Virus record (IMG/VR): IMGVR_UViG_3300021399_000001
Coordinates: 69,905-133,904 of that record
Length of the DNA stretch: 64,000 nt
Strand: one strand, 5' to 3'
Origin: a virus
Lineage: Duplodnaviria > Heunggongvirae > Uroviricota > Caudoviricetes
Part shown: positions 29,811 through 50,612 of the stretch, in pieces
Layout of the letters: each line of letters begins with the position of its first letter
Numbering within the stretch: the stretch's first letter is position 1
Made by a program: the position numbers and the translations under genes
Notes under the pieces: generated by a model
What the model saw: the letters and a program-made list of their open reading frames with translations, nothing else
Databases searched by the model: none
What the model was told of the DNA's origin: nothing

Positions 29811-29921
29811 GGGGAGGTATCCAAGTAGTCAAAGGAGCCAGCCGGTGAGTCTGGTGCTTATACCGGTATGCTAGCTATGACCAATAAGCTTCGCAGGTGC
29901 AAATCCTGTCCCTCCCCACCA
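29811..29921 (+). ncRNA. atypical ~108-nt tRNA-like gene (GGGGAGG...CCTCCCC-A-CCA) with TGCAAAT T-loop
   Basis: Terminal strands form an acceptor-like stem, and CCA is encoded. T-arm GCAGG-TGCAAAT-CCTGT. The interior is ~30 nt longer than any class II tRNA. No canonical 7-nt anticodon loop found (U33 is missing). Confidence 0.4.
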
Positions 29922-29926
29922 TTTAT

Positions 29927-30010
29927 GCGTCAGTATGCCTAGTAGCGAGGGCCCCGCGCTGTAAACGCGGCACGTCAGAAACACCGGTGGTGCAAATCCA
30001 TCCTGGCGCA
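29927..30010 (+). tRNA. tRNA-Tyr (anticodon GTA), class II, T-loop TGCAAAT
   Basis: Acceptor GCGTCAG/CTGGCGC, anticodon stem CCGCG/CGCGG with loop CTGTAAA, 15-nt variable arm, CCA encoded. Confidence 0.65.
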
Positions 30011-30085
30011 CCACAGCTAGACACGCACAGCAATCTTTTCTACTATTAGCGCCATTCATGCTGAAATTAGAATGTGTCTAGATTT

Positions 30086-30156
30086 AGGAGACTGGTGTAA
30101 CGGTAGCATATCCGGCTCCAACCCGGCTGGTTAGGGTTCAAATCCTTAGTCTCCTG
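30086..30156 (+). tRNA. tRNA-Trp (anticodon CCA)
   Basis: Acceptor AGGAGAC/GTCTCCT, anticodon loop CTCCAAC, T-arm TAGGG-TTCAAAT-CCTTA, CCA encoded. Confidence 0.6.
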
Positions 30157-30160
30157 CCAT

Positions 30161-30231
30161 GCCGCATTAGTTCAACGGCAGAACAGTACTTTCGTAAAGT
30201 ACATATATTTGTTCAATTCAAATATGCGGCT
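30161..30231 (+). tRNA. tRNA-Thr (anticodon CGT)
   Basis: Acceptor GCCGCAT/ATGCGGC (perfect), anticodon stem GTACT/AGTAC with loop TTCGTAA, T-arm ATTTG-TTCAATT-CAAAT. No encoded CCA. Confidence 0.6.
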
Positions 30232-30236
30232 TATAA

Positions 30237-30311
30237 CGTTCTGTAACTCAGTTGGTATAGAGTGCCATCCTGATAAGATGGAAGTCGCTGGTTCAAATCC
30301 AGCCAGAACGA
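30237..30311 (+). tRNA. tRNA-Ile (anticodon GAT)
   Basis: Acceptor CGTTCTG/CAGAACG, anticodon stem CCATC/GATGG with loop CTGATAA, T-arm GCTGG-TTCAAAT-CCAGC, CCA encoded. Confidence 0.65.
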
Positions 30312-30314
30312 CCA

Positions 30315-30735
30315 ATAAGGTTCATCCTAGAATACCTCCTTGTCGCGAAAGGGAAAAGGGTCTGCTTCAGCTAATAATATGAGAACAGCAGAGCTTGTAT
30401 TATGTATTTGCAGTATGTAAATGCCGGGAGTTCTCTTGCCCCGTAAGGTAGTCCGGAATACGCACAAGATTCGCTCGGTAACTGGATATATCGTAACTAG
30501 TAACTATCCAGGAAGTAGCTGTCCTTTGATTTTTGATAGCCGAAACTGCACGCGCGTGAAGTCGTGTGAGGTGCCCGATGGGCGTGCCAACCAATAGTAA
30601 CAAGAGGCACAATGGAGTATACACAACGCGAGTGTTAACTCCCATTCATTTATACGTCACTCGTGGCAAGTAAGATGATAGAACTGATGGATTGAGGCCC
30701 AAAGGTATTGATTCCTAACTTGCTGCGAGATTTAT
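30315..30735 (+). ncRNA. GC-enriched structured noncoding block (unclassified candidate ncRNA)
   Basis: ~420 nt with no RBS-supported ORF. GC well above the local average. Many local hairpins, for example GCCGGGAG...TCCGG. Confidence 0.3.
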
Positions 30736-30809
30736 CGGGAACTAGCTCAGTAGGTCAGAGCGGCGGCCTTATAAGCCGTGTGTCCTGGGTTCGAGTCCCA
30801 GGTTCCCGA
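30736..30809 (+). tRNA. tRNA with anticodon TAT (Ile-AUA-reading type?)
   Basis: Acceptor CGGGAAC/GTTCCCG, D-arm GCTC-AGTAGGTCA-GAGC, anticodon stem GCGGC/GCCGT with loop CTTATAA, T-arm CTGGG-TTCGAGT-CCCAG, CCA encoded. Confidence 0.55.
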
Positions 30810-30826
30810 CCAATATGGGGTCGTAG

Positions 30827-30891
30827 TGTAAAGAACACGCTCGGAAAGCAAGGGCCGAGAAAACAAAGGGCAGTACCGAGAGGCTCCACCA
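30827..30891 (+). other. degenerate tRNA-like element ending in CCA
   Basis: Has a D-arm GTGT-AAAGA-ACAC and a CTCGG...CCGAG stem but no canonical T-loop. Ends GGCTCC-A-CCA just upstream of the RBS of the 30908 gene. Confidence 0.25.
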
Positions 30892-30907
30892 ATATAAGGA
30901 AGATATA

Positions 30908-31066
30908 ATGAATAAGTATAAATTTGGTCGTATTACTTTTGGCACTATCCTTACAGTAGTGATGTTTAGTATTGGTTTTGACATCAGAACTTGGCAGTTT
31001 TGGGTGATTTATGGTTGTGCGTGGATGATGTCTTTTATGACTTTTTTGGAGGATTTTAACGGATGA
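30908..31066 (+). CDS. small hydrophobic membrane protein (52 aa)
   Basis: Not in the ORF track. ATG after AAGGAAG. Translation MNKYKFGRITFGTILTVVMFSIGFDIRTWQFWVIYGCAWMMSFMTF... Confidence 0.45.
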   Translation: MNKYKFGRITFGTILTVVMFSIGFDIRTWQFWVIYGCAWMMSFMTFLEDFNG

Positions 31067-31209
31067 TGAAATTCTTTTACGCTTTTATAGCAGCCTTTAA
31101 TTTATTTTGCTTTTATACTTTTCAAGATAATGCTATATGGGTACGTGGTCTTAGTCTTTCATGTTGTCTTTTAATGTGCCTATGTACAATAATTGAAGTG
31201 AATAGATAA
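31063..31209 (+). CDS. small hydrophobic membrane protein (48 aa)
   Basis: ATGA overlap with the previous ORF. Translation MMKFFYAFIAAFNLFCFYTF...CCLLMCLCTIIEVNR. Confidence 0.4.
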   Translation: MMKFFYAFIAAFNLFCFYTFQDNAIWVRGLSLSCCLLMCLCTIIEVNR

Positions 31210-31307
31210 TGCGTCCTTACCGAATCAGCAAACGGCGTGGTCTGCAAAACCATTGATAAGCGGGGCAGCACCGCTAGGACGCTCCAAAAAAAAGAAGAAG
31301 GAGTTTT

Positions 31308-31514
31308 ATGGCAATAAAAATTATTAAACATGGTCAACTGATATTAAGAGCGACTTGTCCTCGTTGTGATTGTATTTTTGAATTTATGCCATCTGATATG
31401 GATATTAAAGGGCCTTTATATGCGCCAATTGAATTTATAAATTGTCCAGAATGTGGCAATGAAATCACTTGGTGGTATGAAGATAAATCAGGACGCAAAT
31501 ATGAGTATATGTAA
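31308..31514 (+). CDS. small zinc-ribbon protein (CxxC...CxxC)
   Basis: RBS GAAGGAG. IKIIKHGQ..TCPRCDC...CPECGNEI is paralogous to the 43028 ORF. Confidence 0.55.
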   Translation: MAIKIIKHGQLILRATCPRCDCIFEFMPSDMDIKGPLYAPIEFINCPECGNEITWWYEDKSGRKYEYM

Positions 31515-31525
31515 AGGAGAAAAGT

Positions 31526-32500
31526 ATGTTTGATCTAATTTTAGCTGTTGTTGTTATTATTGCAGGTTTTGGCGTGGCAAGTGTAGTGTTCCCAGACGTA
31601 ACGAAGCGTAATGGTGACACGAAAAGTAGGAGTTCGATTCGCACAGTTATTCGTGCTGCTGCTTTCGTTATTGCCGTAGGGTTGATTATTCTTTCTTGTA
31701 TTTCTTATGTGCCAACTGGTTATACTGGTATTGTGACAACTTTTGGTAAGGTACATGAACACACACTTGATGCAGGCATTAATTTTCATGCGCCTTGGGA
31801 TAATGTAATTACTATGGATAATCGTGAACAACGTGCATCTTTCCAGTTGGAAGCATTTTCAAAGGATATTCAGCAAGTAGATATTCAAGGTTCTATCAAC
31901 TATAATATTGATAAGCTAACCGCTATGAATCTATACAAGGACGTAGGCACCGGATATGTCAATATTCTAATTGGTCCTCGTATTCAGGAAGATGTAAAGA
32001 TTGTTATTGCTCGTTATACCGCTGAAAATCTAATTGCTAGTCGTCAAGAGGCAGCTAATGCTATTGAGACTCTTATTCGTGATGAATTAACTTCAAAGGG
32101 TATTAATGTAATTTCTCTTGCGGTGGAAAATATTGATTTTACTGATGCTTTTGAATCTGCTGTTGAGGCAAAGCAGGTTGCTACGCAAGAAAAGCAGCGT
32201 GCTCAGACCCAGCAAGAGCAGGCAACTATGGAAGCAGAACAAGCCGCAAAGCGTAAGAGAATTGAAGCAGAAGCCGCGGCAGAGGTAGCAAAGGTGCAAG
32301 CAGACGCAGACGCATATTCTACACAGGTGAAGGCTGCCGCAGAAGCAGAAGCTAATGAAAAGATTAATAAGTCTCTAACTGAAGAACTTGTAAATTATCG
32401 TCAAATTCAGCGTTGGAATGGAGAACTTCCTCAATTTGTTGGCGGCGGCTCCACTATTCCAATCCTTAATATGGGCGAAACTACCGAAACTACGGATTAA
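31526..32500 (+). CDS. SPFH / band-7 (HflC/prohibitin-like) membrane protein
   Basis: RBS AAAGGAGAAAAG. N-terminal TM helix followed by YVPTGYTGIVTTFGKV and a typical SPFH core. Long AEAEA coiled-coil tail. Confidence 0.7.
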   Translation: MFDLILAVVVIIAGFGVASVVFPDVTKRNGDTKSRSSIRTVIRAAAFVIAVGLIILSCISYVPTGYTGIVTTFGKVHEHTLDAGINFHAPWDNVITMDNREQRASFQLEAFSKDIQQVDIQGSINYNIDKLTAMNLYKDVGTGYVNILIGPRIQEDVKIVIARYTAENLIASRQEAANAIETLIRDELTSKGINVISLAVENIDFTDAFESAVEAKQVATQEKQRAQTQQEQATMEAEQAAKRKRIEAEAAAEVAKVQADADAYSTQVKAAAEAEANEKINKSLTEELVNYRQIQRWNGELPQFVGGGSTIPILNMGETTETTD

Positions 32501-32513
32501 TATAAATACTTAT

Positions 32514-32541
32514 AACGCACGGGAAACCGTGCGTTTTTTCT
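32514..32541 (+). terminator. rho-independent terminator
   Basis: AACGCACGG-gaaa-CCGTGCGTT stem followed by TTTTTCT. Overlaps the -35 of the next promoter. Confidence 0.7.
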
Positions 32542-32542
32542 A

Positions 32543-32571
32543 TTTGACTTTGAATAGAAATTATAGTATAA
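32543..32571 (+). promoter_or_regulatory. consensus promoter copy 3
   Basis: TTGACT, 17-nt spacer, TATAAT. Conserved leader TTATTTTAGAAAGAGAAAAGGAG. Confidence 0.65.
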
Positions 32572-32604
32572 TTATTTTAGAAAGAGAAAAGGAGAGCAAA
32601 ATAT

Positions 32605-32787
32605 ATGTCTATTGTTTACACTTTGATTAGCCCTTTGAAGAACTCTGTTGAAACTCGCGTAAAAATTACTAATTTTGAGGAACGAGAACATGGTATTTAT
32701 TTCATTTGGGAAGGTAGCCAATGTTTTGTAAACTGGAATGTATTGGGCACCTATACTCTTGTGGAGGAAGATAAACATGACACTTGA
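32605..32787 (+). CDS. hypothetical protein
   Basis: RBS AAGGAGAGC; 60 aa. Confidence 0.5.
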   Translation: MSIVYTLISPLKNSVETRVKITNFEEREHGIYFIWEGSQCFVNWNVLGTYTLVEEDKHDT

Positions 32788-33238
32788 CGAATGTAGAGTG
32801 GAAACTCAAAAGCACATAGAAAAAGTGCGTAAGTATATCCGCTTTTTTACCGATAGATTAACTACTCGTGGTGTAGAACATGATGCCGCAAAACTTGAAT
32901 CTCCAGAGGTTGAATTATTTGCTGAGCATACTGAACAACTTGCCACATTAGAATATGGATCACAAGAATATAAGCAAGCATTAGAAGCTCTAAAGCCAGC
33001 TTTAGAGCATCATTATGCTACTTATCGTCATCATCCAGAACATTTTCCTAATGGTATTAATGATATGAATTTGATTGATTTAGTGGAATTAATGGCTGAC
33101 TGGAAAGCTTCTAGTGAGCGTCATAATAATGGAAATCTTTTAAAAAGCATAGAAATTAATGCCAAACGATTTGGTATTAGTAATCAATTAACACAGATAT
33201 TGCTTAATACAGCAAAGATTATGGAAGAACATGAATAA
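32777..33238 (+). CDS. hypothetical protein (His-rich HHY..YRHHPEHF)
   Basis: ATG-32777 after GGAGGAAG (ORF track 32738). Confidence 0.5.
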   Translation: MTLDECRVETQKHIEKVRKYIRFFTDRLTTRGVEHDAAKLESPEVELFAEHTEQLATLEYGSQEYKQALEALKPALEHHYATYRHHPEHFPNGINDMNLIDLVELMADWKASSERHNNGNLLKSIEINAKRFGISNQLTQILLNTAKIMEEHE

Positions 33239-33372
33239 TAAACAACAATTAACTCATGATTTTATAAAATTCGTAATGGAAAATTATGGAATACGATTAA
33301 CTATGACTGAATCAGATGAAGAAACATTTGAAACTTTTTTCCCTGATTTAGTTGAAATATTGGAGAAAGAAA

Positions 33373-33483
33373 ATGATACAAATTAATTTATTTGGATTTT
33401 TATTAATTGGCGCGACAGGATATATATTTGGATGGTTCGCGCGAAAAGTATACGAAAGGAGAAATATAAATGATAACACATAA
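33373..33483 (+). CDS. small membrane peptide (36 aa)
   Basis: Not in the ORF track. GGAGAAAG RBS. Translation MIQINLFGFLLIGATGYIFGWFARKVYERRN... Confidence 0.35.
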   Translation: MIQINLFGFLLIGATGYIFGWFARKVYERRNINDNT

Positions 33484-34018
33484 TGATGGTACTATTAAAA
33501 TTGAAATGCCCGATTTACATATACCAGAATCAGAAGTGGATAATGTTGTTCGCAATTTTCTTCATTCACGTGATGTAAAGGCGATTGAAACTAAGATTGA
33601 AGATTTAAAGCAAACGCTTTTATCATTGGAAAATAATAATAATCGTCTTCAAAAGCGTTTCAATGAAATTTATGAAGAAAAATGGAAAGACAATGAACTA
33701 ATGGAAATGAAGCTAAAGATGGAGCGCGCAATTCGTGAGAGAAGCTATGGCTTCCCGCTAACCGAAGAAGAACGGAATCGTTCCTATGACTGGCAGCGCA
33801 AGCACGATTCAGAAGTTCATTCTAATCCAGAAGGCTATCATGGTGCTTCTGGCGGCGGTTTCTCATACACTTTTTATCCTACTGGACTAGGCACTACTTG
33901 TAATTGTTTTTGTAATCAATGTAAGGCAAAGGCCATTCGTGAAGCGGGCGAAAAATGGTATGATAGATGCAAGGAGCTTGGTGGCGTTTGTGAAGTTGTT
34001 GGATGGGAGGCTTTCTAA
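33470..34018 (+). CDS. hypothetical protein (coiled coil + Cys-rich C-terminus)
   Basis: RBS AAAGGAGAAATATAA; 182 aa. Confidence 0.5.
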   Translation: MITHNDGTIKIEMPDLHIPESEVDNVVRNFLHSRDVKAIETKIEDLKQTLLSLENNNNRLQKRFNEIYEEKWKDNELMEMKLKMERAIRERSYGFPLTEEERNRSYDWQRKHDSEVHSNPEGYHGASGGGFSYTFYPTGLGTTCNCFCNQCKAKAIREAGEKWYDRCKELGGVCEVVGWEAF

Positions 34019-34021
34019 CTT

Positions 34022-34411: not shown

Positions 34412-34602
34412 AATTTATTTATGATGATAATTTGTATGATGCAATGAAAGACGTATATGATTATGCTTATCGTGTTTTCTTTGGAAAGGCTCCAATAGAT
34501 GTTATATATCGTATGAATTATGGCAACAAGGGAGCAGAGCAAAAAGTTTTACAGTATATTTGGGACACCTATATTGAACCGAAAGGAGAAAATAATGAGT
34601 AA
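34408..34602 (+). CDS. hypothetical protein
   Basis: 64-aa ORF; ATGA overlap with the upstream gene. Confidence 0.4.
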   Translation: MKFIYDDNLYDAMKDVYDYAYRVFFGKAPIDVIYRMNYGNKGAEQKVLQYIWDTYIEPKGENNE

Positions 34603-35185
34603 TATTTACTTTACAAGCGACACTCATTTTTCACATAATCGCGGCTTTCTTTATGAGCCACGCGGTTTTTCATCTATTGAAGAACATGATGAGACTATTA
34701 TAGAAAATTGGAATAAAGTAGTAAAACCAGAAGATATTGTTTTTCTTCTTGGTGATACTATGTTAAATAATAATGATAAAGGAATTGAATGTCTTAATAA
34801 GTTAAACGGCTCTATTTGGTTTATTCGCGGCAACCATGATTCAGGAGAGCGCATTTATCGTATTTATCATGAGTGTCCACATATTCATTTTTTAGAGGGC
34901 GGTTCTGAAAATTTTGCTACAATTGCTACAATTAAGAAATTTAATGGCTATAATGTATACTTATCACATTATCCAACTTACACCAGTTATATTGAAAATA
35001 TGGCGCCATTAAAGAAACATATGCTGAATTTTCATGGACATACACATTCAAAAAATAAGTTTTATCAAGATATTCCATTCATGTATAATGTAGCACTTGA
35101 CGCGCATAATAACGCGCCAGTATCTTTTGATGAAATTATTTCAGATATTGAAGCAAAAGCAAACGAATGTATTGCTATGCTATAA
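34595..35185 (+). CDS. calcineurin-like metallophosphoesterase
   Basis: ATG-34595 after AAAGGAGAAAATAATG (ORF track 34520). Motifs SDTHFSH, LGDTM, RGNHD and HGHTH. Confidence 0.65.
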   Translation: MSNIYFTSDTHFSHNRGFLYEPRGFSSIEEHDETIIENWNKVVKPEDIVFLLGDTMLNNNDKGIECLNKLNGSIWFIRGNHDSGERIYRIYHECPHIHFLEGGSENFATIATIKKFNGYNVYLSHYPTYTSYIENMAPLKKHMLNFHGHTHSKNKFYQDIPFMYNVALDAHNNAPVSFDEIISDIEAKANECIAML

Positions 35186-45056: not shown

Positions 45057-45060
45057 CCAT

Positions 45061-45695: not shown

Positions 45696-45769
45696 GGGGT
45701 TGTAATCGAATTGGCATAGGTACTGCGCTTAGAACGCAGGTTTTGAGAGTTCGACTCTCTCCTTCCCCA
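45696..45769 (+). tRNA. class-I tRNA with anticodon TAG and tandem U-U mismatches in the acceptor stem
   Basis: Exact 74-nt standard geometry. Acceptor GGGGTTG/CTTCCCC, anticodon stem CTGCG/CGCAG with loop CTTAGAA, short variable arm GTTTT, T-arm GAGAG-TTCGACT-CTCTC, CCA encoded. Confidence 0.5.
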
Positions 45770-46385
45770 CCAAGACACATTCAGCAACTCAAAGTTTATC
45801 TTTGAATCGTCAGTTCAAATCTGACCTCGCGCATCGCGCAAGTAGCATAGTGGATAATGCAAAAGACAGAAAATGTGTCTAGTACGAGACTTGCAATCAC
45901 CACCCGCCTTCGGTGATAAAACAGGGGTTAACACTCGTTTGTGAGTAACGCTCGGAAAACGCCTGTATAAAAAAGAAAGAAGCGAGGACAGCCAGCCCAA
46001 CAGCTGTGGGTATGGTGGTAACTCTCACATCCTAGGAGTCCTGACGCTGTTATTGGACTTAATACTCAACGGAGTTGGTACCCAAACAAATCCTAGGATG
46101 TTATGGTATCAAGTGAAGAGCCTTCTCGTGGCGATACTGATTTCGACGAATCTTCACAATGAAGAACGGCTAGAATCGCGTTCCCTATAATTCCTCGTAG
46201 AAATTATAGTCTTAGTCACTAGCAATAAATATTAAAGAGCGCATTTCCCGTCCTGATCAGCGAGTAGAAATGCCAAAGAGCTCCCAGTGATATTGGGCGG
46301 GTGCGAGCACCCGTATAAGGGAACCCGGGGTGTACGAGAAAGCGTGGATAAGAGTGGACCGGCCACGATGAAATAGCTCACTTTA
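45770..46385 (+). ncRNA. GC-enriched structured noncoding block (unclassified)
   Basis: ~615 nt with no ORF. Contains a T-arm-like hairpin GTCAG-TTCAAAT-CTGAC, many long-range stems (for example GGGTA...TACCC and GTGAAGA...TCTTCAC), and an S-element-like AAATTATAGTCTTAG. Confidence 0.3.
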
Positions 46386-46389
46386 ATAT

Positions 46390-46418
46390 TTGACTTTTTC
46401 TTCAAATCATGCTATAAT
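46390..46418 (+). promoter_or_regulatory. consensus promoter copy 16 (drives the structured RNA and HNH gene)
   Basis: TTGACT, 17-nt spacer, TGCTATAAT; leader TATTATAGTAAAGAGGAAAGG. Confidence 0.6.
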
Positions 46419-46439
46419 TATTATAGTAAAGAGGAAAGG

Positions 46440-47140
46440 AAGTAGATACTCTATTTAATAAAATGGTTGAACCAAGTGAAGAAGAGCTAACCACTCTGCT
46501 TGGGCTATCTGAATAACAGCCATACGATTTAGCGGGATACTACTAAATCGCGGCCGCAAAATCAGTAATGATTAGCGATAAAGAGAAACTCTGAATGTTA
46601 AGGGTAGGCGCTTGGTTATCCGCTAACAAAAGCACGATTCCTCACGGCATCATAATAGAAGTCAAGCGTTAAAAGCGTAGACTGAATCCTAGTTAGGGTT
46701 TAGCTGGTGACTTGTATCAAACCTAGGAAAGACCAACAAGATGCTATTGTCGTTGAAACCTAGAAATAGGCTATAAGTGAGGTTTACGGTAAAAGTAGCT
46801 TAAAGTGACAACAAGTTCTTGGTATTAGAACAAATAATACATATTTGATTTATTATTAAAGAATTTGCTGAATGGTTTAAGTGAAATTTGGGAGTAGACA
46901 ATCTCCCCGTTGCTAGTCGAAAGACAGGGTGAAGAAGTTAAAGGGTCGCTACCTTTGGCTCAGCCTTCATCTTCAACGTGGCTGAATATGTTTAGAAGGA
47001 TAATACAAGTACGGCGAAGGTCGCAACGGTTTTATTAAATAGGGTATTTGCCCTAAACTTTAAGGTAGCATTGGAGTAATTAACCAATGAGACAAAGATG
47101 CTCCTACATCGGCTTAAAGTTTAAAATATAATCATAGGAG
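46440..47140 (+). ncRNA. structured noncoding block upstream of the second HNH endonuclease (candidate ribozyme or ncRNA)
   Basis: ~700 nt with no ORF. Follows promoter copy 16. Contains ACTACTAAATCGCGG (similar to the group I intron R element GACTAAAT) and a downstream TAGTCG. Confidence 0.3.
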
Positions 47141-47148
47141 TGATTTAT

Positions 47149-47559
47149 ATGAAAGCAGGAGATAAAAGAATTTGCCAAATTTGTGGCACAGAATTTGAAA
47201 TTATTGATAAAGGATGGAGTAGAAAATACTGTTATAAATGCTCTCCAAAAATTGATAAATCTGGAAAAACTTTGACATACGCGGAAAATATTACGATAAA
47301 ACGTCGTGCTATTAAAGAAATGTTAATTGCTTATAAAGGTGGAAAATGTGAACGATGTGGCTATGATAAGTGTAATAGAGCCTTAGAATTTCATCATATT
47401 AACCCACAAGAAAAAGATTTTGGTATTTCTAACAATATCAATCGTAATATTGAAGAATTAAAATCAGAAGTTGATAAATGTATTCTTTTATGTTCCAATT
47501 GCCATGCCGAAGTTCATCAAGAACTTTATGATAAAGGTCTTTTAAAAGAAGAATTTTAG
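47149..47559 (+). CDS. HNH endonuclease with N-terminal zinc finger
   Basis: ATG-47149 after TAGGAGTGATTTAT. CQICGTEF...CYKCSP is a zinc ribbon. EFHHINP...LLCSNCHAEVH is the HNH motif. Confidence 0.7.
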   Translation: MKAGDKRICQICGTEFEIIDKGWSRKYCYKCSPKIDKSGKTLTYAENITIKRRAIKEMLIAYKGGKCERCGYDKCNRALEFHHINPQEKDFGISNNINRNIEELKSEVDKCILLCSNCHAEVHQELYDKGLLKEEF

Positions 47560-47678
47560 GCGGATTCGCTCAGTGGTTGAGCAGTCGGCTGGTTGGATAG
47601 AAATAGTCCTCGTTGAGTGCAAGACTCAAATCCAGCACCATTAACCGACCTAGGGGAGTTCAATTCTCTCATCCGCCG
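47559..47678 (+). tRNA. tRNA (anticodon GGT? Thr-like) with a 49-nt insertion in the anticodon loop
   Basis: Acceptor GGCGGAT/ATCCGCC (perfect), D-arm GCTC-AGTGGTT-GAGC, T-arm GGGAG-TTCAATT-CTCTC, CCA encoded. Anticodon-stem strands GTCGG (47584-47588) and CCGAC (47645-47649) are separated by 56 nt. Confidence 0.45.
47590..47643 (+). other. minihelix-like element nested in the anticodon loop of the preceding tRNA
   Basis: GCTGGTT then an 18-nt spacer then TTGAG-TGCAAGA-CTCAA then ATCCAGC-A-CCA. The T-loop variant TGCAAGA resembles the TGCAAAT loops seen elsewhere. Confidence 0.35.
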
Positions 47679-47961
47679 CCATAGTCACGTAGAGGACTTA
47701 TTCTCTATGCTTGCTCAATGTCCAACTTATGTGAACGCGCGAAGTCACATAAGAGAGTCAACCCTTCCGAAGTACGAAGGAACCCCTAAAATGGTCTGTG
47801 GGGATAAACGGCATCATGAACCGTCTAATGTAGTTGACAAAGAGTATAGGTTCGTTAGGCTCCTAAGAAAAGCCTATCACCATCACGATAGCAAATAAGT
47901 GAATAAACGGATACGCGGTTAGCTGACCTTAAAGCTATTCTAATCTAGAGGAGAATAAAAT

Positions 47962-48501
47962 ATGAATGACGTAAGACTAAAGATTCTACCGCCTTGGACT
48001 ATTACAATTCGTAAGTTTGAGGCATTATTCGACGGTGATCCGCAGATTGCTTGTAATTGTAATTTCGCAGGTTCTAATCCTTCCATCGTATTAGCCTGTA
48101 ATAACGGCGACAAGGTCGCTGCCCTACAGCAGATTCTTCCTTCAGAAGTTTCTTTTGGTAATATTAAGCTAGCTGTAAGTGTAGATGGTACTCCTTCTAA
48201 TCGTGCTTTTACCAGCAAGGTTGAACTATTTGATACAGCTTTTAAAGGCAATCCTGTTTACGCTTATTCTGTATGTCCAGCTGAAGAAGGTTATCAATGG
48301 ATTGGAACTACTTATGTAGTATTTAATAACTGCGTAGTACAATTCGCTGCTGATAATCTAAATGATTGTCATGGCGTTATTAGTACTCTATATGAAACCA
48401 TTGCTAATGAGCTTCTAACTGGTCCTGCTACTGAAGGTGTATTTTATAATACAAATGTAGAGCGTGCAGGACTTGGTAAACCTCTAGGTGAGTGGCCATA
48501 A
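47962..48501 (+). CDS. hypothetical protein
   Basis: RBS AGAGGAGAATAAAAT; 179 aa. Confidence 0.5.
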   Translation: MNDVRLKILPPWTITIRKFEALFDGDPQIACNCNFAGSNPSIVLACNNGDKVAALQQILPSEVSFGNIKLAVSVDGTPSNRAFTSKVELFDTAFKGNPVYAYSVCPAEEGYQWIGTTYVVFNNCVVQFAADNLNDCHGVISTLYETIANELLTGPATEGVFYNTNVERAGLGKPLGEWP

Positions 48502-48514
48502 GCCACTCCATTGT

Positions 48515-48587
48515 GGGCCTATAGTTCAGCGGCTAGAATGTCCGGTTGTCTCCCGGAAGATCGCAGGTTCAAATCCTGTTAGGCTCG
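48515..48587 (+). tRNA. tRNA-Asp (anticodon GTC)
   Basis: Acceptor GGGCCTA/TAGGCTC, anticodon stem TCCGG/CCGGA with loop TTGTCTC (unusual U37), T-arm GCAGG-TTCAAAT-CCTGT, CCA encoded. Confidence 0.55.
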
Positions 48588-48679
48588 CCAGTTTGGTGCT
48601 TATAGTTTCGACCATTTAAAACTCGAAACTAATTTTAGACTCAATCAGCAATTATTTACTTGCATGTGGGGCCGGAAGT

Positions 48680-48735
48680 ATTGGTTTGACTCCAGTTCTC
48701 TCCGCCATATGGGGAGATAGTGTAACGATAGCACG
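48680..48735 (+). other. permuted tRNA-like halves: T-arm + TCTCTCC-G-CCA, then tat linker, then GGGGAGA + D-arm
   Basis: ATTGG-TTTGACT-CCAGT then TCTCTCC G CCA at 48680-48707. GGGGAGA-TA-GTGT AACGATA GCAC at 48711-48735. The acceptor strands are mutually complementary. Confidence 0.4.
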
Positions 48736-48759
48736 CCGTATAGTATGAGTCTAGTATAG

Positions 48760-48833
48760 CTGGGTGTAGCGCAGTTTGGTAGCGTGCTAGATTTGGGATC
48801 TAGAGGCCGTGAGTTCGAATCTCACCACCCAGA
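48760..48833 (+). tRNA. tRNA-Pro (anticodon TGG)
   Basis: Acceptor CTGGGTG/CACCCAG, anticodon stem CTAGA/TCTAG with loop TTTGGGA, T-arm GTGAG-TTCGAAT-CTCAC. No encoded CCA. Confidence 0.6.
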
Positions 48834-48887
48834 CTTCTTAACCGGGTTTGAAGATTATCCCAATTGTAAAATCTTCCCCTTTCTTTC

Positions 48888-48916
48888 TTGACTTTTTCTA
48901 GAATTTTTGATATAAT
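48888..48916 (+). promoter_or_regulatory. consensus promoter copy 17
   Basis: TTGACT, 17-nt spacer, TGATATAAT. Confidence 0.6.
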
Positions 48917-48946
48917 AAATATATCAAAGGAAAGGAAATAAATAAT

Positions 48947-49174
48947 ATGGATAAGAAAGAATTGTCCGCGCAAGCAACCAAGGCTGAATTTGTTAAGTCT
49001 ATTCATCATTGGTTAATGAATACGCTTAAACAAAATGGTAAAGAAGAATATAGTGATTGTTTTACTATTGAAGGTTCTAGTATTATGTGCCAACTGCCCG
49101 CGGATTATTTTAATCTGTACTCTATTCCTGCGAATACTAAAATTGAAATGAAATTTATTTCTAAGAAATCTTAA
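48947..49174 (+). CDS. hypothetical protein
   Basis: RBS AAAGGAAAGGAAATAAATAAT. Downstream of promoter copy 17. Confidence 0.5.
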   Translation: MDKKELSAQATKAEFVKSIHHWLMNTLKQNGKEEYSDCFTIEGSSIMCQLPADYFNLYSIPANTKIEMKFISKKS

Positions 49175-49210
49175 AGTTTTAAGCCGTTACAGCAATCTTT
49201 TTTATAAGTG

Positions 49211-49275
49211 GTTAATTTATTTTGATTGAGAAGCAAAATGATAGATGGTTCAAGTCCATCACGATTAAAATTAAC
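49211..49275 (+). other. three-arm tRNA-like element (closing stem + hairpin + T-arm), no CCA
   Basis: GTTAATTT...AAATTAAC closing stem enclosing ATTTTG-attgagaag-CAAAAT and GATGG-TTCAAGT-CCATC. Confidence 0.3.
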
Positions 49276-49385
49276 GGCTTAGTATTATTATAAGAGACAA
49301 GGCACATGCAGCAATTACTTTTATAATTACAAAATATAGATATTGGACAGTATATTAAAGTAAATTATTAGTGCCTTGAATTTAT

Positions 49386-49457
49386 GCCGGCGTGGCGCAA
49401 CGGTAGCGCAATCGCCTTGTAAGCGATAGGTTGTGGGTTCGATTCCCTCCGCCGGCT
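49386..49457 (+). tRNA. tRNA-Thr (anticodon TGT)
   Basis: Acceptor GCCGGCG/CGCCGGC, D-arm GCGC-AACGGTA-GCGC, anticodon stem ATCGC/GCGAT with loop CTTGTAA, CCA encoded. Confidence 0.65.
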
Positions 49458-49479
49458 CCATAACAAAAAGGAGTTTACT

Positions 49480-49905
49480 ATGAGATTTTTCGCTAAGAAG
49501 AAATTAAATCCAAATTCAAGTTTTGTTCCACCTTCAGTTGAAAAGAAATGCGAACATAAATTTCAAGATTTCCCATGGTATTTAACTTGGGATATACAAT
49601 ATAATCGTTACATGATTAAAGTAATTGAACCTTATGTTTGTATCTTTTGCGGTGAAAGACGTGACAAAGTTTTGGCCTCTTATACAGGTACAAATTATAA
49701 AGAGGGTGACAAACTTTTAAACGAACTCCGAAAACGTTTTGATAATCACATTAAATATCAAGAAGAAGTAGAAGATATGATAAATGATATGCTGCTTGTA
49801 GACCCAGAATATTTAAAGTGGTATCACTTATTACGCGAACAACAAGACCCTTCTACATCGCGCCCACAAGCTAATTTTAATAAAAGTCCAGAATTGAAAT
49901 TATAA
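49480..49905 (+). CDS. hypothetical protein
   Basis: RBS AAAAAGGAGTTTACT; 141 aa. Confidence 0.5.
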   Translation: MRFFAKKKLNPNSSFVPPSVEKKCEHKFQDFPWYLTWDIQYNRYMIKVIEPYVCIFCGERRDKVLASYTGTNYKEGDKLLNELRKRFDNHIKYQEEVEDMINDMLLVDPEYLKWYHLLREQQDPSTSRPQANFNKSPELKL

Positions 49906-49924
49906 TTAATAGGCACACACAGCA

Positions 49925-50004
49925 ACTTACATAGATAATCTATGAGTCATCGGTTCGAGCCCGATTATGCAAGCCAAAATTTTGCGTATCGCCCAGTCGG
50001 TAGG
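49925..50004 (+). other. minihelix-like element ending TATGCAA-G-CCA, then aaatt linker, then tRNA 5' half (TTGCGTA + D-arm GCCC-AGTCGGTA-GGGC)
   Basis: TTACATA then CATAGATaATCTATG hairpin then ATCGG-TTCGAGC-CCGAT then TATGCAA G CCA at 49925-49974. TTGCGTA-TC-GCCC... at 49980 onward. Both 5' 7-mers pair with TATGCAA. Confidence 0.4.
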
Positions 50005-50030
50005 GCAATAGAAAATAATGTGCCTAGATG

Positions 50031-50101
50031 ATGGGGACTAACCTAATGGAAGGGTCTTCGGCTCTGACCCGAAGTGTGATAGTTCAATTCTATCGTCCCC
50101 A
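50031..50101 (+). tRNA. tRNA-Gln (anticodon CTG)
   Basis: Acceptor TGGGGAC/GTCCCCA, anticodon stem TTCGG/CCGAA with loop CTCTGAC, T-arm GATAG-TTCAATT-CTATC, CCA encoded. Confidence 0.6.
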
Positions 50102-50107
50102 GCCATA

Positions 50108-50180
50108 TGGGAGTGTAGCTCAGTAGGGAGAGCACTAGACTTTTAATCTAGGCGTCGAGGGTCCGATTCCCTCCACTCTC
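50108..50180 (+). tRNA. tRNA-Lys (anticodon TTT)
   Basis: Acceptor GGGAGTG/CACTCTC, anticodon stem CTAGA/TCTAG with loop CTTTTAA, T-arm GAGGG-TCCGATT-CCCTC, CCA encoded. Confidence 0.6.
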
Positions 50181-50193
50181 ACCAATTATAATA

Positions 50194-50281
50194 TGCGGTA
50201 TTAGCGTAGAGGCCGAACGCGGGAGTTTGCTAAACTCTGTCGATCTTCAGTGATCCGAAGGTTCGAATCCTTCATGCCGCG
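50194..50281 (+). tRNA. tRNA-Ser (anticodon GCT), class II
   Basis: Acceptor GCGGTAT/ATGCCGC, anticodon loop TTGCTAA, 17-nt variable arm, T-arm GAAGG-TTCGAAT-CCTTC, CCA encoded. Confidence 0.65.
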
Positions 50282-50504
50282 CCAAGTGTGGACAGTAGGC
50301 TTGGAAGCAGCCACCTGATAATGAGTCTTTAATTTTTCCATCTGTGCGAAATGTATTATAGGCTACGTTTGTTATAATGCCCTATAAGTATGATGTGCAG
50401 ATGGATAATAGAAATATGAAGTTTGGCGTAAAAGCACACCACAAATATTGAGCTGGCCAGAGTAGCGTGCAGAAAGCTCAAGAGAATAAACACGGGGTTA
50501 CTAC

Positions 50505-50612
50505 ACAATGCGGTGGCGGAACAGGTAGACGCTACACATAAGATATTGGAATCGTCGCTGAAAAAGTGCTGGCATTTTGGAAACAATATCATGTAAGGTG
50601 CAAATCCTTACC
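50505..50612 (+). ncRNA. atypical ~108-nt tRNA-like gene with TGCAAAT T-loop (second of this kind)
   Basis: D-arm-like GGCG GAACAGGTAGA CGCT. An internal 7-bp stem GATATTG...CAATATC encloses 38 nt. T-arm TAAGG-TGCAAAT-CCTTA followed by CCCGCAT. Approximate boundaries. Confidence 0.3.

What the first reader, a model, noticed from the sequence alone, without database searches (positions are those of the whole stretch)
29811..50612. Unusual T-loop variant TGCAAAT shared by tRNA-Tyr and two oversized (~108-nt) tRNA-like genes
tRNA-Tyr (29927-30010) and two long tRNA-like genes (29811-29921 and ~50505-50612) replace the near-universal TTCRANY T-loop with TGCAAAT (G at position 55). The nested minihelix at 47590 has TGCAAGA. 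The two long genes have acceptor-like terminal helices but ~30 extra internal nucleotides and no canonical 7-nt anticodon loop. One of them (29811-29921) also encodes CCA. They may be class II tRNAs with insertions, Y-RNA-like tRNA mimics, or regulatory tRNA-like RNAs.
Basis: seen in the sequence. Interest (0 to 1): 0.6.

Follow-up and report, generated by a model that had tools for sequence, protein, structure and literature searches.

The report
Phage tRNA look-alikes without anticodons
A giant phage's tRNA gene cluster holds two RNAs that are tRNA-shaped at the top but have no anticodon; one belongs to a large family of phage RNAs that is in no RNA catalogue I could search, and both carry a rare "G55" elbow that in this phage group goes mainly with tRNA-like RNAs that do not decode.

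Summary
GGTGCAAATCC occurs three times in the window, each time as a T arm: tRNA-Tyr (29927-30013), E1 (29811-29921) and E2 (refined to 50507-50619). Neither E1 nor E2 has a usable anticodon loop.

E2 belongs to a large family with no Rfam 15 match (at least 120 viral contigs, 98 mostly Bacillota genomes, cultured phages such as phi3T and Ln-9). Members have:
- a covarying 7-bp acceptor stem;
- a tRNA-Leu-type D arm;
- a 6-bp T stem;
- a hypervariable hairpin in place of the anticodon arm;
- no encoded CCA and no conserved discriminator.

E1 looks like a relative of a class II tRNA-Tyr gene type seen in related phages. It has a 9-nt loop, a 35-nt extra arm and an encoded ACCA. It is 95-99% identical across four phages whose flanking tRNAs are only 59-83% identical.

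G55 covaries with A18 in the D loop across hundreds of phage tRNAs. In this phage group it is rare in decoding tRNAs (2%, half of them Tyr) but dominant in tRNA-like modules.

Best reading: these are non-decoding, tRNA-scaffolded small RNAs matured by tRNA-processing enzymes. Their molecular target is unknown.

The same window also encodes a Ro60-like protein, RNA-repair genes, circularly permuted tRNA-like RNAs, and tRNAs split by nested tRNA-like inserts.

The parts
29811..29921 (+). E1: a 111-nt tRNA-like RNA resembling a class II tRNA-Tyr. Acceptor GGGGAGG/CCUCCCC (29811-17 / 29911-17). D arm UCC-AAGUAGUCAAA-GGA (29820-36, with A18). Hairpin CCAG-CCGGUGAGU-CUGG (29838-54, 9-nt loop). Long arm GCUUAU...AUAAGC (29856-89). 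T arm GCAGG-UGCAAAU-CCUGU (29893-29909). One extra C at 29910. Encoded ACCA (29918-21).
   Evidence: RF00005 at 25.6 bits, below the gathering score. Coordinates. Four variants are 95-99% identical while flanking tRNAs are 59-83% identical. Similarity to the L492/L493 tRNA-Tyr.
29927..30013 (+). Class II tRNA-Tyr (GUA) with T loop UGCAAAU (G55) and D loop AGUAGCGA (A18); CCA is encoded.
   Evidence: Rfam tRNA at 42.9 bits. ARAGORN finds it only at -ps90. 7 of 15 distinct tRNA-Tyr genes in relatives also have a UGC T loop.
50507..50619 (+). E2: a 113-nt member of a large phage family of tRNA-like RNAs. Acceptor AAUGCGG/CCGCAUU. U8-G9. tRNA-Leu-type D arm GCG-GAACAGGUAGA-CGC (50516-32). 9-nt linker. 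Variable hairpin (50542-50590). AU. 6-bp T stem GUAAGG/CCUUAC with loop UGCAAAU (50593-50611). Discriminator U. No CCA.
   Evidence: No Rfam hit. Family found. Covariation. Model R1 scores it 86.6 bits, and an ortholog not used to build the model (L450) scores 84.9 bits.
47592..47640 (+). Context: a 49-nt acceptor/T-arm minihelix (GUUGGAU...UUGAG-UGCAAGA-CUCAA-AUCCAGC-ACCA) nested in the anticodon loop of the tRNA at 47559-47681. Removing it leaves the loop CUGUUAA (Asn, GUU).
   Evidence: Pairs 3 and 4 of its acceptor stem covary in L471/L507.
42258..42301 (+). Context: a 44-nt minihelix (GUGAGAU...CGCAG-UUCAACU-CUGCC-GUCUCGC-ACCA) nested in the anticodon loop of the tRNA at 42223-42342. Removing it leaves the loop CUUUCAA (anticodon UUC).
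   Evidence: Ortholog in L455.
28856..28990 (+). Context: a circularly permuted tRNA-like RNA (T arm, acceptor 3' strand plus ACCA, loop, acceptor 5' strand, D arm) closed by the terminal stem AGACCCAU/AUGGGUCU. This is a Y-RNA/YrlA-like layout. Similar units lie at about 45773-45880 and 49910-50027.
   Evidence: Weak tmRNA_permuted hit of 17.7 bits. The L001 ortholog has UGCAAAU together with D loop AAGUUAGCAGA, instead of UUCGACU together with AGCGGCAGA.
36359..37891 (+). Context: a Ro60/TROVE-fold RNA-binding protein (Pfam DUF2828 + DUF7788).
   Evidence: Pfam. phrog_850 'RNA-binding protein'. AF2 model with pLDDT 80.6. The top 11 Foldseek PDB hits are TROVE/Ro60/Rsr, E from 6e-8 to 7e-4, aligned over the full length.
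39689..40339 (+). Context: an RNA ligase (PF09414). Together with cREC_REC (38810-39196) and a metallophosphoesterase (34520-35185) it forms an RNA heal-and-seal gene set inside the tRNA region.
   Evidence: Such a module is described for jumbo phages in PMC7824862.

Best explanation
E1 and E2 are non-decoding, tRNA-scaffolded small RNAs.

Shown by comparative analysis:
- They keep the parts of a tRNA that maturation enzymes read: the acceptor stem, the T arm and a D arm that docks on it (the elbow).
- The anticodon arm is replaced. In the E2 family a hypervariable hairpin sits where a class II variable arm would. In E1 there is a 9-nt-loop hairpin plus a 35-nt arm.

Inferred:
- They are cut out of the tRNA-array transcript, or in small phages out of an mRNA, by RNase P at the 5' end.
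- At the 3' end, the CCA-less E2 family would be cut by RNase Z and then receive CCA, as for CCA-less tRNAs of Bacillota. E1, which encodes CCA, would be trimmed.
- The tRNA fold makes them stable.
- They stay out of translation because they have no anticodon and no conserved synthetase identity elements. The unusual 7+6 acceptor/T stack and the G55 T loop, which cannot be converted to pseudouridine, may add to this.
- The replaced arm is the working part, a displayed hairpin or sequence that binds a protein or RNA partner. That partner is not identified.

The G55 T loop is an alternative elbow in which A18-G55 replaces G18-Psi55 while G19-C56 is kept.
For: Structure of the E2 family:
91 of them have a perfect 7-bp acceptor and a 6-bp T stem.
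- All 7 acceptor pairs and 4 of 6 T-stem pairs change on both sides: 309 double-change cells against 77 in shuffles.
- 104 distinct acceptor strands occur among 172 members.

No decoding:
- The family interior is 43-82 nt in the pattern-selected set, and whole members reach 203 nt in related jumbo phages. It has no conserved sequence and no 7-nt U33/R37 loop.
- The discriminator is A 54%, U 30%, G 9%, C 7%, and CCA is encoded in 3 of 172 members.
- ARAGORN, with or without introns, and Rfam both fail to find an anticodon in E1 or E2.

Elbow:
- Among 540 phage tRNAs, T loops starting TTC have a GG D loop in 358 and AG only in 3. T loops starting TGC have AG only in 75 and GG in 14.
- Orthologous permuted RNAs swap UUCGACU/..CGG.. 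for UGCAAAU/..UAG...
- Inside the E2 family, D loop AGG goes with UGC, AUG with UGA (G19-C56 becomes U19-A56), and GGG with UUC.

Selection:
- E1 is 95-99% identical in four phages whose flanking tRNA-Arg is 72-74% identical in most pairs (identical in one pair) and whose tRNA-Tyr is 59-83% identical. All six variable sites preserve the helices.

Trans-acting product rather than punctuation:
- Related jumbo phages carry 3-5 E2-type genes in tandem, 10-250 nt apart, with different inserts.

G55 tracks non-decoding modules in this phage group:
- 15 of 804 distinct tRNAs have it, and 7 of those are Tyr.
- By comparison, 29 of 37 E2-type genes have UGCAAAU and 19 of 25 nested minihelices have G at that position.

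Precedent:
- S. aureus tRNA-Gly species that serve cell-wall synthesis rather than the ribosome have TGC/TGT instead of TTC (PMC7826273).
Against: - No expression, processing or binding data exist. Every functional step is inferred.
- G55 is not restricted to non-decoding RNAs. Some phages have whole tRNA sets with UGC or AGC T loops (for example L055), and the window's own tRNA-Tyr has it.
- The A18 rule is not absolute. E2-family members with an AGG D loop and a UUC T loop exist, and the 19:56 and G18:U55 switches inside the family each rest on about one lineage.
- The 75-sequence alignment was pre-selected for perfect pairing, so its 100% paired figure is circular. Only the covariation counts carry weight.
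- No target was found. The E1 and E2 interiors have no complementarity to the window beyond chance (12 and 10 nt).
- Most family members have neither their own promoter nor a terminator (36 of 191 have a terminator-like hairpin). That also fits a purely cis role.
- E1 has only four near-identical copies, so its secondary structure is unsupported by double compensatory changes.
Confidence: 0.5

Rival explanations
1. They are Y-RNA-like partners of the phage's Ro60-like protein. The tRNA-like RNA would dock on or tether the TROVE ring as part of an RNA quality-control or repair particle.
For: - The window encodes a full-length Ro60/TROVE-fold protein about 6.4 kb downstream of E1.
- It sits beside an RNA ligase, a cRec domain protein and a phosphoesterase.
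- Jumbo phages with ROT/TROVE proteins are expected to have a tRNA-like partner (PMC7824862).
Against: - No Y_RNA or YrlA match at E<=10.
- In Y RNA and YrlA the termini form the Ro-binding stem. In E1 and E2 the termini form an acceptor stem.
- The E2 family lives in hundreds of small Bacillota (pro)phages. Their recurrent neighbours within 3 kb are an ArpU-like regulator, an HNH endonuclease and terminase, not a Ro-like gene.
- The window has better-fitting candidates, the permuted tRNA-like RNAs closed by a terminal stem.
Confidence: 0.12
2. They are free-standing copies of a class of tRNA-shaped intervening or mobile elements. In the same phage group such elements sit inside tRNA anticodon loops. 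On this reading their conservation reflects propagation and excision, not a trans-acting function.
For: - E1 shows presence/absence polymorphism. L001 and L104 lack it (a different spacer sits between the Arg and Tyr genes), yet it is near-identical where present.
- Related phages carry 43-117 nt minihelices or whole anticodon-less tRNA-like units inside anticodon loops. These mostly have G55-type loops and NCCA tails. One example is the 91-nt unit in L486, with an A18 D arm and a UGCAAUU T loop.
Against: - No mobility mechanism or associated enzyme was identified.
- E2-family members occupy a conserved genomic slot in small phages and diverge extensively, which looks like vertical descent.
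- E2-type genes lack the NCCA tail typical of the nested units.
Confidence: 0.15
3. They are cis-acting tRNA-like punctuation. Their only role would be to recruit RNase P and RNase Z to cut a polycistronic transcript, and the RNA itself would be a by-product.
For: - Most members lack their own promoter or terminator.
- In small phages they sit between the regulatory module and the HNH/terminase genes. That slot can also hold an ordinary phage tRNA, as with tRNA-Met in PhiM247 (PMC10763512).
Against: - Tandem arrays of 3-5 copies occur with no ORFs between them.
- A long hairpin is always retained, although a minihelix would be enough for cleavage.
- The D arm and the elbow covariation are conserved.
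- E1 is constrained over its whole length.
Confidence: 0.12
4. They are decoding tRNAs after all. This could be through splicing of an insert, as appears to be needed for other tRNAs in this phage, or through reading by an expanded loop (the 9-nt loop in E1).
For: - In this phage group many tRNAs regain a perfect 7-nt loop when a nested insert is removed.
- E1 resembles a tRNA-Tyr gene type that carries a 47-49 nt insert.
- E1 encodes ACCA with A73.
Against: - ARAGORN with introns and relaxed thresholds finds nothing in E1 or E2.
- There is no U33/R37 context anywhere in either RNA.
- The E2-family interior and discriminator are unconserved and CCA is absent.
- Rfam scores are 25.6 bits for E1 and no hit for E2.
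Confidence: 0.06
5. They are decaying tRNA pseudogenes, or chance resemblances.
For: They fail tRNA detectors.
Against: - An 11-mer occurs three times in the correct structural context.
- There are hundreds of family members with compensatory changes.
- E1 is more conserved than its neighbouring tRNAs.
Confidence: 0.02

Closest known systems
Non-proteogenic tRNA-Gly of Staphylococcus (NP1-3; S. epidermidis Ia/Ib)
   Same: The T loop has UGC/UGU instead of UUC, so no Psi55 can form. Canonical D-loop/T-loop contacts are altered. These species are kept out of ribosomal translation while remaining tRNA-shaped (PMC7826273; PMC13443448).
   Different: They keep a normal anticodon arm (UCC), are charged by GlyRS and feed the Fem transferases. 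They are cellular genes. E1 and E2 have no anticodon loop, and the E2 family has no conserved identity elements.
Bacterial Y RNA / YrlA with Ro60 (Rsr)
   Same: A non-decoding RNA with a tRNA-like module (T arm, D arm, acceptor-like stem), encoded near a Ro60/TROVE protein and RNA-repair genes. This window has such a protein.
   Different: In Y RNA and YrlA the 5' and 3' ends form the Ro-binding stem and the tRNA-like part is internal. E1 and E2 end in an acceptor stem. There is no Rfam hit. The E2 family's recurrent 3-kb neighbours include no Ro-like gene. The permuted RNAs at 28856, 45773 and 49910 fit this layout better.
Class II tRNA-Leu and tRNA-Tyr
   Same: E2's U8-G9 and D arm GCG-GAAYAGGUAGA-CGC are of tRNA-Leu type, and the family model's next hits are the real tRNA-Leu genes. 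E1 shares its D arm, T stem and discriminator A with a phage class II tRNA-Tyr. In both, a hairpin sits directly 5' of the T stem, like a long variable arm.
   Different: No anticodon stem-loop. A 6-bp T stem (in E1 the sixth layer is a C-C mismatch). Inserts far longer than any variable arm. G55.
tmRNA tRNA-like domain
   Same: An acceptor stem plus T arm with the anticodon arm replaced by other RNA.
   Different: No tag reading frame and no pseudoknots. ARAGORN tmRNA mode finds nothing. A full D stem is present, and the RNAs are only about 110 nt long.
Phage T4 stable RNAs 'species 1 and 2' (rnaC, rnaD) in the T4 tRNA cluster (recalled from memory, not checked here)
   Same: Small stable RNAs of unknown function, co-transcribed with phage tRNAs and matured by the tRNA-processing machinery, with tRNA-like termini.
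   Different: No sequence relationship was tested. These are T4 RNAs of a Gram-negative host. No G55 or Leu/Tyr-type D arm is known to me.
Engineered 'tRNA scaffold' RNAs (recalled from memory)
   Same: The anticodon arm is replaced by a cargo hairpin, so that the cell's tRNA enzymes process and stabilise the chimera. This is the architecture seen in the E2 family.
   Different: It is a laboratory design, not a natural family, and it uses normal T loops.

Membership tests
tRNA (Rfam RF00005) | Score at or above the gathering threshold (29 bits) | tested here: not met
   E1 scores 25.6 bits. E2 has no hit at E<=10. tRNA-Tyr, by contrast, scores 42.9 bits.
tRNA (Rfam RF00005) | Anticodon arm with a 7-nt loop (U33, anticodon, purine 37) | tested here: not met
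   E1 has the 9-nt loop CCGGUGAGU. E2 has a 9-nt linker plus a 49-nt hairpin. ARAGORN with introns and relaxed thresholds finds nothing.
tRNA (Rfam RF00005) | Acceptor stem, D arm and T arm in cloverleaf order | tested here: met
Class II tRNA (Leu/Ser/Tyr) | Long variable arm next to the T stem, plus class II D-arm features | tested here: inconclusive
   The D arms are of Leu type (E2) and Tyr type (E1), and a hairpin abuts the T stem with 2-3 nt between. The arms are 35-150 nt long and the anticodon arm is missing, so the homology of the arm is inferred only.
Y RNA / YrlA | The 5' and 3' termini pair to form the Ro60-binding stem, with the tRNA-like module internal | tested here: not met
   The termini form an acceptor stem.
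Y RNA / YrlA | Match to the Rfam Y_RNA or YrlA models | tested here: not met
   No such hit at E<=10.
Y RNA / YrlA | A Ro60/TROVE protein encoded in the same genome | tested here: met
   The protein from 36359-37891 has a Ro60/TROVE fold. This does not hold for the small phages carrying E2-type genes, within 3 kb.
Y RNA / YrlA | Binding to Ro60 | not testable with these tools
   Needs gel-shift or co-purification.
tmRNA | tRNA-like domain plus tag-peptide reading frame | tested here: not met
   ARAGORN -m finds 0 genes. There is no tmRNA hit over E1 or E2.
tRNA-Sec | 13-bp acceptor/T stack arranged 8+5 (bacteria), 6-bp D stem, UCA anticodon | tested here: not met
   The stack has 13 layers but is arranged 7+6. 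The D stem is 3 bp. There is no UCA loop.
Non-proteogenic tRNA-Gly type | UGC/UGU T loop with non-canonical D-loop contacts | tested here: met
   UGCAAAU occurs in E1, E2 and Tyr, with an A18-type D loop in E1 and Tyr. The literature feature is from PMC7826273.
Non-proteogenic tRNA-Gly type | Gly identity, UCC anticodon, use by Fem transferases | tested here: not met
   There is no anticodon loop. The D arms are of Leu and Tyr type.
E2-type phage tRNA-like family (model R1, defined here) | 7-bp acceptor, UG, D arm GCG-GAAYAGGUAGA-CGC, variable insert ending ..AU, 6-bp T stem with loop UGCAAAU, no CCA | tested here: met
   E2 scores 86.6 bits, but it was in the training set. The independent ortholog L450 scores 84.9 bits, and about 37 further members in related jumbo phages score 47-85 bits. 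E1 scores only 24.5 bits, the same as real tRNA-Leu genes, so it is not a member.

The most novel reading that the evidence does not exclude
E1 and E2 are the free-standing form of a previously undescribed class of tRNA-shaped elements. The class also occurs nested inside the anticodon loops of many tRNAs of this phage group (Asn, Lys, the UUC tRNA, Ile, Leu, Thr, His, Trp).

The nested form would act as a 'tRNA-in-tRNA' intron. RNase P and 3'-end processing would release the inner tRNA-like unit. The phage's own heal-and-seal enzymes (cRec, phosphoesterase, RNA ligase) would then rejoin the outer halves.

If so, the phage's supply of exactly those tRNAs that host anticodon nucleases attack would depend on phage-encoded repair. 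The G55 elbow would mark the units that must not enter translation.
Probability: 0.2. Interest if true: 0.92.

Novelty: new variant of a known kind. Interest (0 to 1): 0.7.

Why it matters
- It defines a large, easily recognised family of phage and prophage tRNA-like RNAs that is not in Rfam 15 and not annotated in the GenBank phage records I inspected. The family includes genetically tractable systems (phi3T in B. subtilis, Leuconostoc dairy phages, Enterococcus and Listeria phages), so its function can be tested directly.
- It shows that the near-universal G18-Psi55 elbow contact has a natural, covarying alternative (A18-G55) that is common in phages. This bears on tRNA folding, on TruB and TrmH dependence, on tRNA gene finders (default ARAGORN missed the tRNA-Tyr), and possibly on evasion of host factors that read the elbow.
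- It suggests that nature uses the 'tRNA scaffold' trick to make stable small RNAs with interchangeable cargo hairpins.
- Together with the Ro60-like protein, the repair enzymes, the permuted tRNA-like RNAs and the split tRNAs, it marks this phage group as a rich system for tRNA-centred conflict biology.

Tried and rejected
- Rfam at gathering and at E<=10 thresholds over both elements, and over 20 family loci, gave only a sub-threshold tRNA hit for E1.
- ARAGORN in default, intron, relaxed and tmRNA modes found no anticodon or tag in E1 or E2.
- Plain MFE folding is not informative. E2 has z = -0.5 and tRNA-Tyr z = -0.1.
- blastn of E1 against GenBank phages found nothing.
- The neighbour protein 51709-54525 has no relatives in IMG/VR.
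- An antisense-target search of the E1 and E2 interiors against the window gave only chance-level matches.
- A search for a dedicated promoter or terminator around family members found a weak terminator enrichment only.
- I considered that the 'UAAG' before the E2 hairpin is a relic anticodon loop (U33-AAG-R37). I rejected this because its distance from the D stem varies and no anticodon stem can form.
- I considered a link between the E2 family and DNA packaging, because of its position before HNH/terminase. I rejected this as unsupported, because that slot can also hold an ordinary phage tRNA (PMC10763512).
- Sequence and profile searches of the DUF2828 protein against the PDB found nothing. 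Only the fold comparison revealed Ro60.
- Literature searches for A18/G55, for tRNA-like RNAs near terminase, and for nested minihelix introns found no prior description. The searchable library is limited, so this is weak evidence of novelty.
- The DOI 10.1093/nar/gkw722 was not held.

Full report
SETTING

The window is a phage-like stretch with all long ORFs on the + strand. It holds a 23-kb tRNA region (28.2-51.0 kb) with 29 tRNAs by default ARAGORN. At the gathering threshold Rfam adds a ROOL RNA (46448-47042), a drum RNA (44660-44756) and a DUF3800-XI RNA (28222-28269).

One protein of the region (47962-48501) has 60 relatives at 77-97% identity in IMG/VR, on contigs of up to about 190 kb. 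The source is therefore a member of a large group of jumbo phages.

THE OBSERVATION

GGTGCAAATCC occurs exactly three times in the window, always as a stem-loop with the 7-nt loop TGCAAAT, followed by a strand that pairs with an upstream acceptor strand.

- tRNA-Tyr (29927-30013). This is a bona fide class II tRNA: Rfam 42.9 bits, anticodon GUA. Default ARAGORN misses it.
- E1 (29811-29921). It aligns to the tRNA model at 25.6 bits, under the 29-bit gathering score. It has a 9-nt loop where the anticodon loop should be, about 35 extra nucleotides in the variable region, and an encoded ACCA.
- E2. It has no Rfam match at all. Its true extent is 50507-50619: a 7-bp acceptor, U8-G9, D arm GCG-GAACAGGUAGA-CGC, a 9-nt linker, a 49-nt hairpin, AU, a 6-bp T stem, and no CCA.

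E2 BELONGS TO A LARGE FAMILY WITH NO RFAM MATCH

How it was found:
- A sensitive blastn of E2 against GenBank phages hit 50 records (Leuconostoc, Enterococcus, Bacillus, Geobacillus, Listeria, Lactobacillus phages). The hits matched its 5' or 3' end only. In the three records I inspected they lay in unannotated intergenic DNA.
It also found 98 stretches among 185,579 representative genomes, mostly Bacillota and at most two per genome, as expected for prophages.

Structure:
- Of 119 unique viral sequences, 91 have a perfect 7-bp acceptor and a 6-bp T stem.
- In a 75-sequence alignment every acceptor pair and four of six T-stem pairs show changes on both sides: 309 cells against 77 ± 7 in shuffles, and far above slid controls. 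The alignment was pre-selected for pairing, so only the covariation counts carry weight.
- 172 perfect-acceptor members carry 104 different acceptor strands.

No sign of decoding or charging:
- The interior is 43-82 nt in this set, and whole members reach 203 nt in jumbo phages. It has no conserved sequence. It consists of a short purine-rich linker followed by a hairpin whose 3' strand ends two nucleotides before the T stem, which is where a class II variable arm sits. There is no anticodon stem-loop.
- CCA is encoded in 3 of 172 members. The discriminator is A 54%, U 30%, G 9%, C 7%. Position 74 is U in 58%. There is thus no conserved synthetase identity, and the 3' end would need RNase Z plus CCA addition. 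That route for CCA-less precursors in Bacillota is established knowledge recalled from memory.

Model and membership:
- A covariance model (R1) scores E2 at 86.6 bits. The next window hits are the real tRNA-Leu genes (32.5 and 24.8 bits) and E1 (24.5 bits). E2 is therefore tRNA-Leu-derived, and E1 is not a member.
- None of 20 family loci has an Rfam hit over the element.

Genomic context:
- In small phages the element lies downstream of an ArpU-like regulator and upstream of HNH endonuclease and terminase genes, on the same strand. I labelled those gene clusters from their sequences; I ran no profile search on them. That slot can also hold an ordinary phage tRNA (PMC10763512).
- Only 19% of members have a terminator-like hairpin downstream, against 4% in shuffled sequence, and there is no consistent promoter.
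- In the jumbo-phage relatives R1 finds about 37 members, up to five per locus. They often stand in tandem 10-250 nt apart, with the same acceptor but different inserts. L450 5906-6018 is the direct ortholog of E2, at 84.9 bits.

E1 IS A CONSTRAINED RELATIVE OF A tRNA-Tyr TYPE

- Pattern scans of IMG/VR and of the metagenome collection recovered three further copies (L256, L255 = L355, L358).
- They are 95-99% identical to E1. The tRNA-Arg immediately upstream is 72-74% identical in most pairs (identical between L255 and L358), and the tRNA-Tyr immediately downstream is 59-83% identical.
- The six variable sites are all structure-neutral (C-G to U-G in the long arm, the T stem and pair 1-72, plus changes at unpaired or wobble positions).
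- Other relatives (L001, L104) have an unrelated 100-nt spacer at this place. E1 is therefore an accessory gene under strong constraint, or one that was recently exchanged between phages.
- Its D arm (UCC-AAGUAGUCAAA-GGA), its T stem (GCAGG/CCUGU) and the extra C before the acceptor 3' strand match a class II tRNA-Tyr of relatives L492 and L493 (GCC-AAGUGGUCAAA-GGC; GCAGG-UUCAAAU-CCUGU-C). That gene carries a 47-49 nt insert ahead of its CUGUAAA loop. The D and T loops differ only by G18 to A and U55 to G; E1 also has no GUA loop.

THE G55 T LOOP IS AN ALTERNATIVE ELBOW THAT COVARIES WITH A18

- A scan for GGTGCAAATCC(N10)ACCA found at least 120 viral stretches. 106 of 122 matches have a 5/5 T stem, and they cover many isotypes.
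- In 540 ARAGORN tRNAs from those loci, TTC loops go with a GG D loop in 358 cases and with AG only in 3. TGC loops go with AG only in 75 and with GG in 14, and several of the 14 read xAGG.
- Orthologous permuted tRNA-like RNAs in the window and in L001 swap UUCGACU with AGCGGCAGA for UGCAAAU with AAGUUAGCAGA.
- Within the E2 family, D loop GAAUAGGUAGA goes with UGC, GAAUAUGUAGA with UGA (four genes of one lineage, plus two intermediates), and AAAUGGGUAGA with UUC. This fixes the register as A18-G19-G20 and fits the known tertiary pairs 18:55 and 19:56.
- The rule is not absolute, because members with AGG and UUC exist.
- In this jumbo-phage group 804 distinct tRNAs have TTC in 679, TCC in 67 and TGC in only 15, of which 7 are tRNA-Tyr (7 of 15 Tyr genes). 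By contrast, 29 of 37 E2-type genes have UGCAAAU, and 19 of 25 nested minihelices have G at that position.
- The only precedent I found is the non-proteogenic tRNA-Gly of staphylococci. Those have TGC/TGT instead of TTC, no pseudouridine, and altered D/T contacts (PMC7826273; PMC13443448).

MECHANISM

Shown by comparative analysis: a tRNA-like acceptor/T stack of 7+6 layers, a D arm docked on the T loop, replacement of the anticodon arm, and no conserved charging determinants.

Inferred:
- excision by RNase P at the 5' end, and by RNase Z or exonucleases at the 3' end;
- CCA addition for the E2 type;
- stability conferred by the tRNA fold;
- exclusion from translation;
- function carried by the replaced arm.

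Tandem diversified copies argue for trans-acting products rather than mere punctuation. I found no target: there is no complementarity in the window beyond chance. My confidence in the structural claims is about 0.9. My confidence in the functional model as a whole is about 0.5.

THE Ro60 LEAD

ORF 36359-37891 (Pfam DUF2828 + DUF7788; phrog_850 'RNA-binding protein') gave no PDB hit by sequence or profile. Its AF2 model (pLDDT 80.6) matches TROVE/Ro60/Rsr structures over the full length as the top 11 hits, with E from 6e-8 to 7e-4.

It lies among an RNA ligase, a cRec domain protein and a metallophosphoesterase. This is the kind of repair module described for jumbo phages, where a ROT/TROVE protein is expected to have a tRNA-like partner (PMC7824862).

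E1 and E2 do not have the Y-RNA layout. The window does contain at least three circularly permuted tRNA-like RNAs closed by a terminal stem (about 28856-28990, 45773-45880 and 49910-50027), and these do have it. I therefore rate 'E1/E2 are Y RNAs' at about 0.12.

RELATED PHENOMENON INSIDE THE FINDING'S SPAN

The 'nested minihelix' is real and general.
- In the window, the tRNAs at 42223-42342 and 47559-47681 carry inserts of exactly 44 and 49 nt. Each insert is an acceptor/T-arm minihelix running from G1 to ACCA. Removing them leaves the loops CUUUCAA and CUGUUAA.
- In relatives, 33 distinct tRNAs (Asn, Lys, the UUC tRNA, Ile, Leu, Thr, His, Trp) gave a minihelix parse for inserts of 43-117 nt. 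The inserts lie mostly between positions 34|35 or 35|36, and 22 end in NCCA. Several are whole anticodon-less tRNA-like units with an A18 D arm and a G55 T loop, for example L486.
- The nested acceptor stems covary (window GUUGGAU/AUCCAGC against L471 GUCAGAU/AUCUGGC).
- These units have the same architecture as E1 and E2. That motivates the 'novel case', in which the free-standing and nested forms are one class.

VERDICT

- The finding is real.
- The T-loop variant is a widespread, covarying alternative elbow.
- E2 is a member of a large phage family of tRNA-like RNAs that has no Rfam match and that I found described nowhere.
- E1 is a rare, highly constrained tRNA-like RNA resembling a phage tRNA-Tyr type.
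- Both are best read as non-decoding tRNA-scaffolded RNAs.
- Their function remains to be shown.

Noticed in passing
window 42223-42342 and 47559-47681; L449-L508 (e.g. L471 6800-6925, L486 5708-5873, L449 9362-9505, L468 8274-8407); L186 2155-2297: Many tRNAs of this jumbo-phage group are interrupted in the anticodon loop by 43-117 nt inserts. The inserts are themselves acceptor/T-arm minihelices or whole tRNA-like units ending in NCCA. Removing them restores perfect 7-nt loops (Asn GUU, Lys UUU, UUC, Ile UAU, Leu UAA, Thr UGU, His GUG, Trp CCA). The insertion sites are mostly 34|35 or 35|36. This may be a new kind of tRNA intron that depends on RNase P plus the phage RNA ligase.
   Followed up: partly
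window ~28856-28990, ~45773-45880, ~49910-50027; related stem-closed units at ~30014-30085 and ~49180-49282: A repeated family of RNAs closed by a terminal stem, with 5' ..ACAGCAA and 3' GAAAAU.. next to the stem. Three of them contain a circularly permuted tRNA-like core (T arm, acceptor 3' strand with CCA, loop, acceptor 5' strand, D arm). This is a YrlA/Y-RNA-like layout. The only Rfam hit was a weak tmRNA_permuted match (17.7 bits).
   Followed up: partly
window 36359-37891: A DUF2828/DUF7788 protein whose predicted structure matches Ro60/TROVE over its full length. Sequence and profile searches of the PDB saw nothing. More than 7,800 homologs exist in metagenomes.
   Followed up: yes
window 34520-35185, 38810-39196, 39689-40339, 31526-32500: A metallophosphoesterase, a cRec (cyclic-phosphate processing Rec) domain protein, an RNA ligase (PF09414) and an SPFH/Band-7 protein sit inside the tRNA region. 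This looks like an RNA heal-and-seal module.
   Followed up: partly
window 46448-47042, 44660-44756, 28222-28269; L161 667-1248; L159 230-335: ROOL, drum and DUF3800-XI RNAs lie among the tRNAs. In other phages a ROOL or drum RNA sits directly next to an E2-type tRNA-like gene.
   Followed up: no
L449-L508 and window 50109-50184: A second non-canonical T loop, UCC (C55, e.g. UCCGAUU), occurs in 67 of 804 distinct tRNAs of this phage group, spread over many isotypes.
   Followed up: no
L456 9771-10039, L460 3839-4107, L470 5637-5902, L484 8407-8672, L493 12799-13065: Relatives carry tRNAs with a CUA anticodon (amber suppressor; ARAGORN labels them 'Pyl'), interrupted by inserts of about 175 nt. 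Other tRNAs (several Leu, Pro and Ser genes) carry inserts of 200-730 nt, some of them containing an ORF. I took these for group I introns from their length and position but did not test that. This raises the possibility of TAG recoding in part of the group.
   Followed up: no
L360 1509-1651 (49 near-identical copies in IMG/VR), L191 11362-11509, L411, L424, L429, L442: A longer RNA type with the same tRNA-Leu-type 5' end and D arm, an internal T-arm-like hairpin (GGGUUCGAUUCCC) and a GAUUAAAAAC motif. Model R1 scores these at 54-63 bits over about 145 nt. They may be a sub-family with a nested T arm.
   Followed up: no
L035 ~1040-1064 and L129 (70-97 nt): Very short RNAs that start like tmRNA (GGGG..GAUUCGACG) and end in a G55 T arm plus ACCA. 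They look like a tRNA-like domain only, with no tag region.
   Followed up: no
L059 3573-3680; L073 / L087 (107 nt): Other solitary anticodon-less tRNA-like genes with G55 T loops and an encoded ACCA. ARAGORN finds no tRNA on those loci. They are unrelated in sequence to E1 and E2.
   Followed up: partly
window 41319-41795: An HNH/NUMOD4 homing-endonuclease-like ORF lies between tRNA genes.
   Followed up: no
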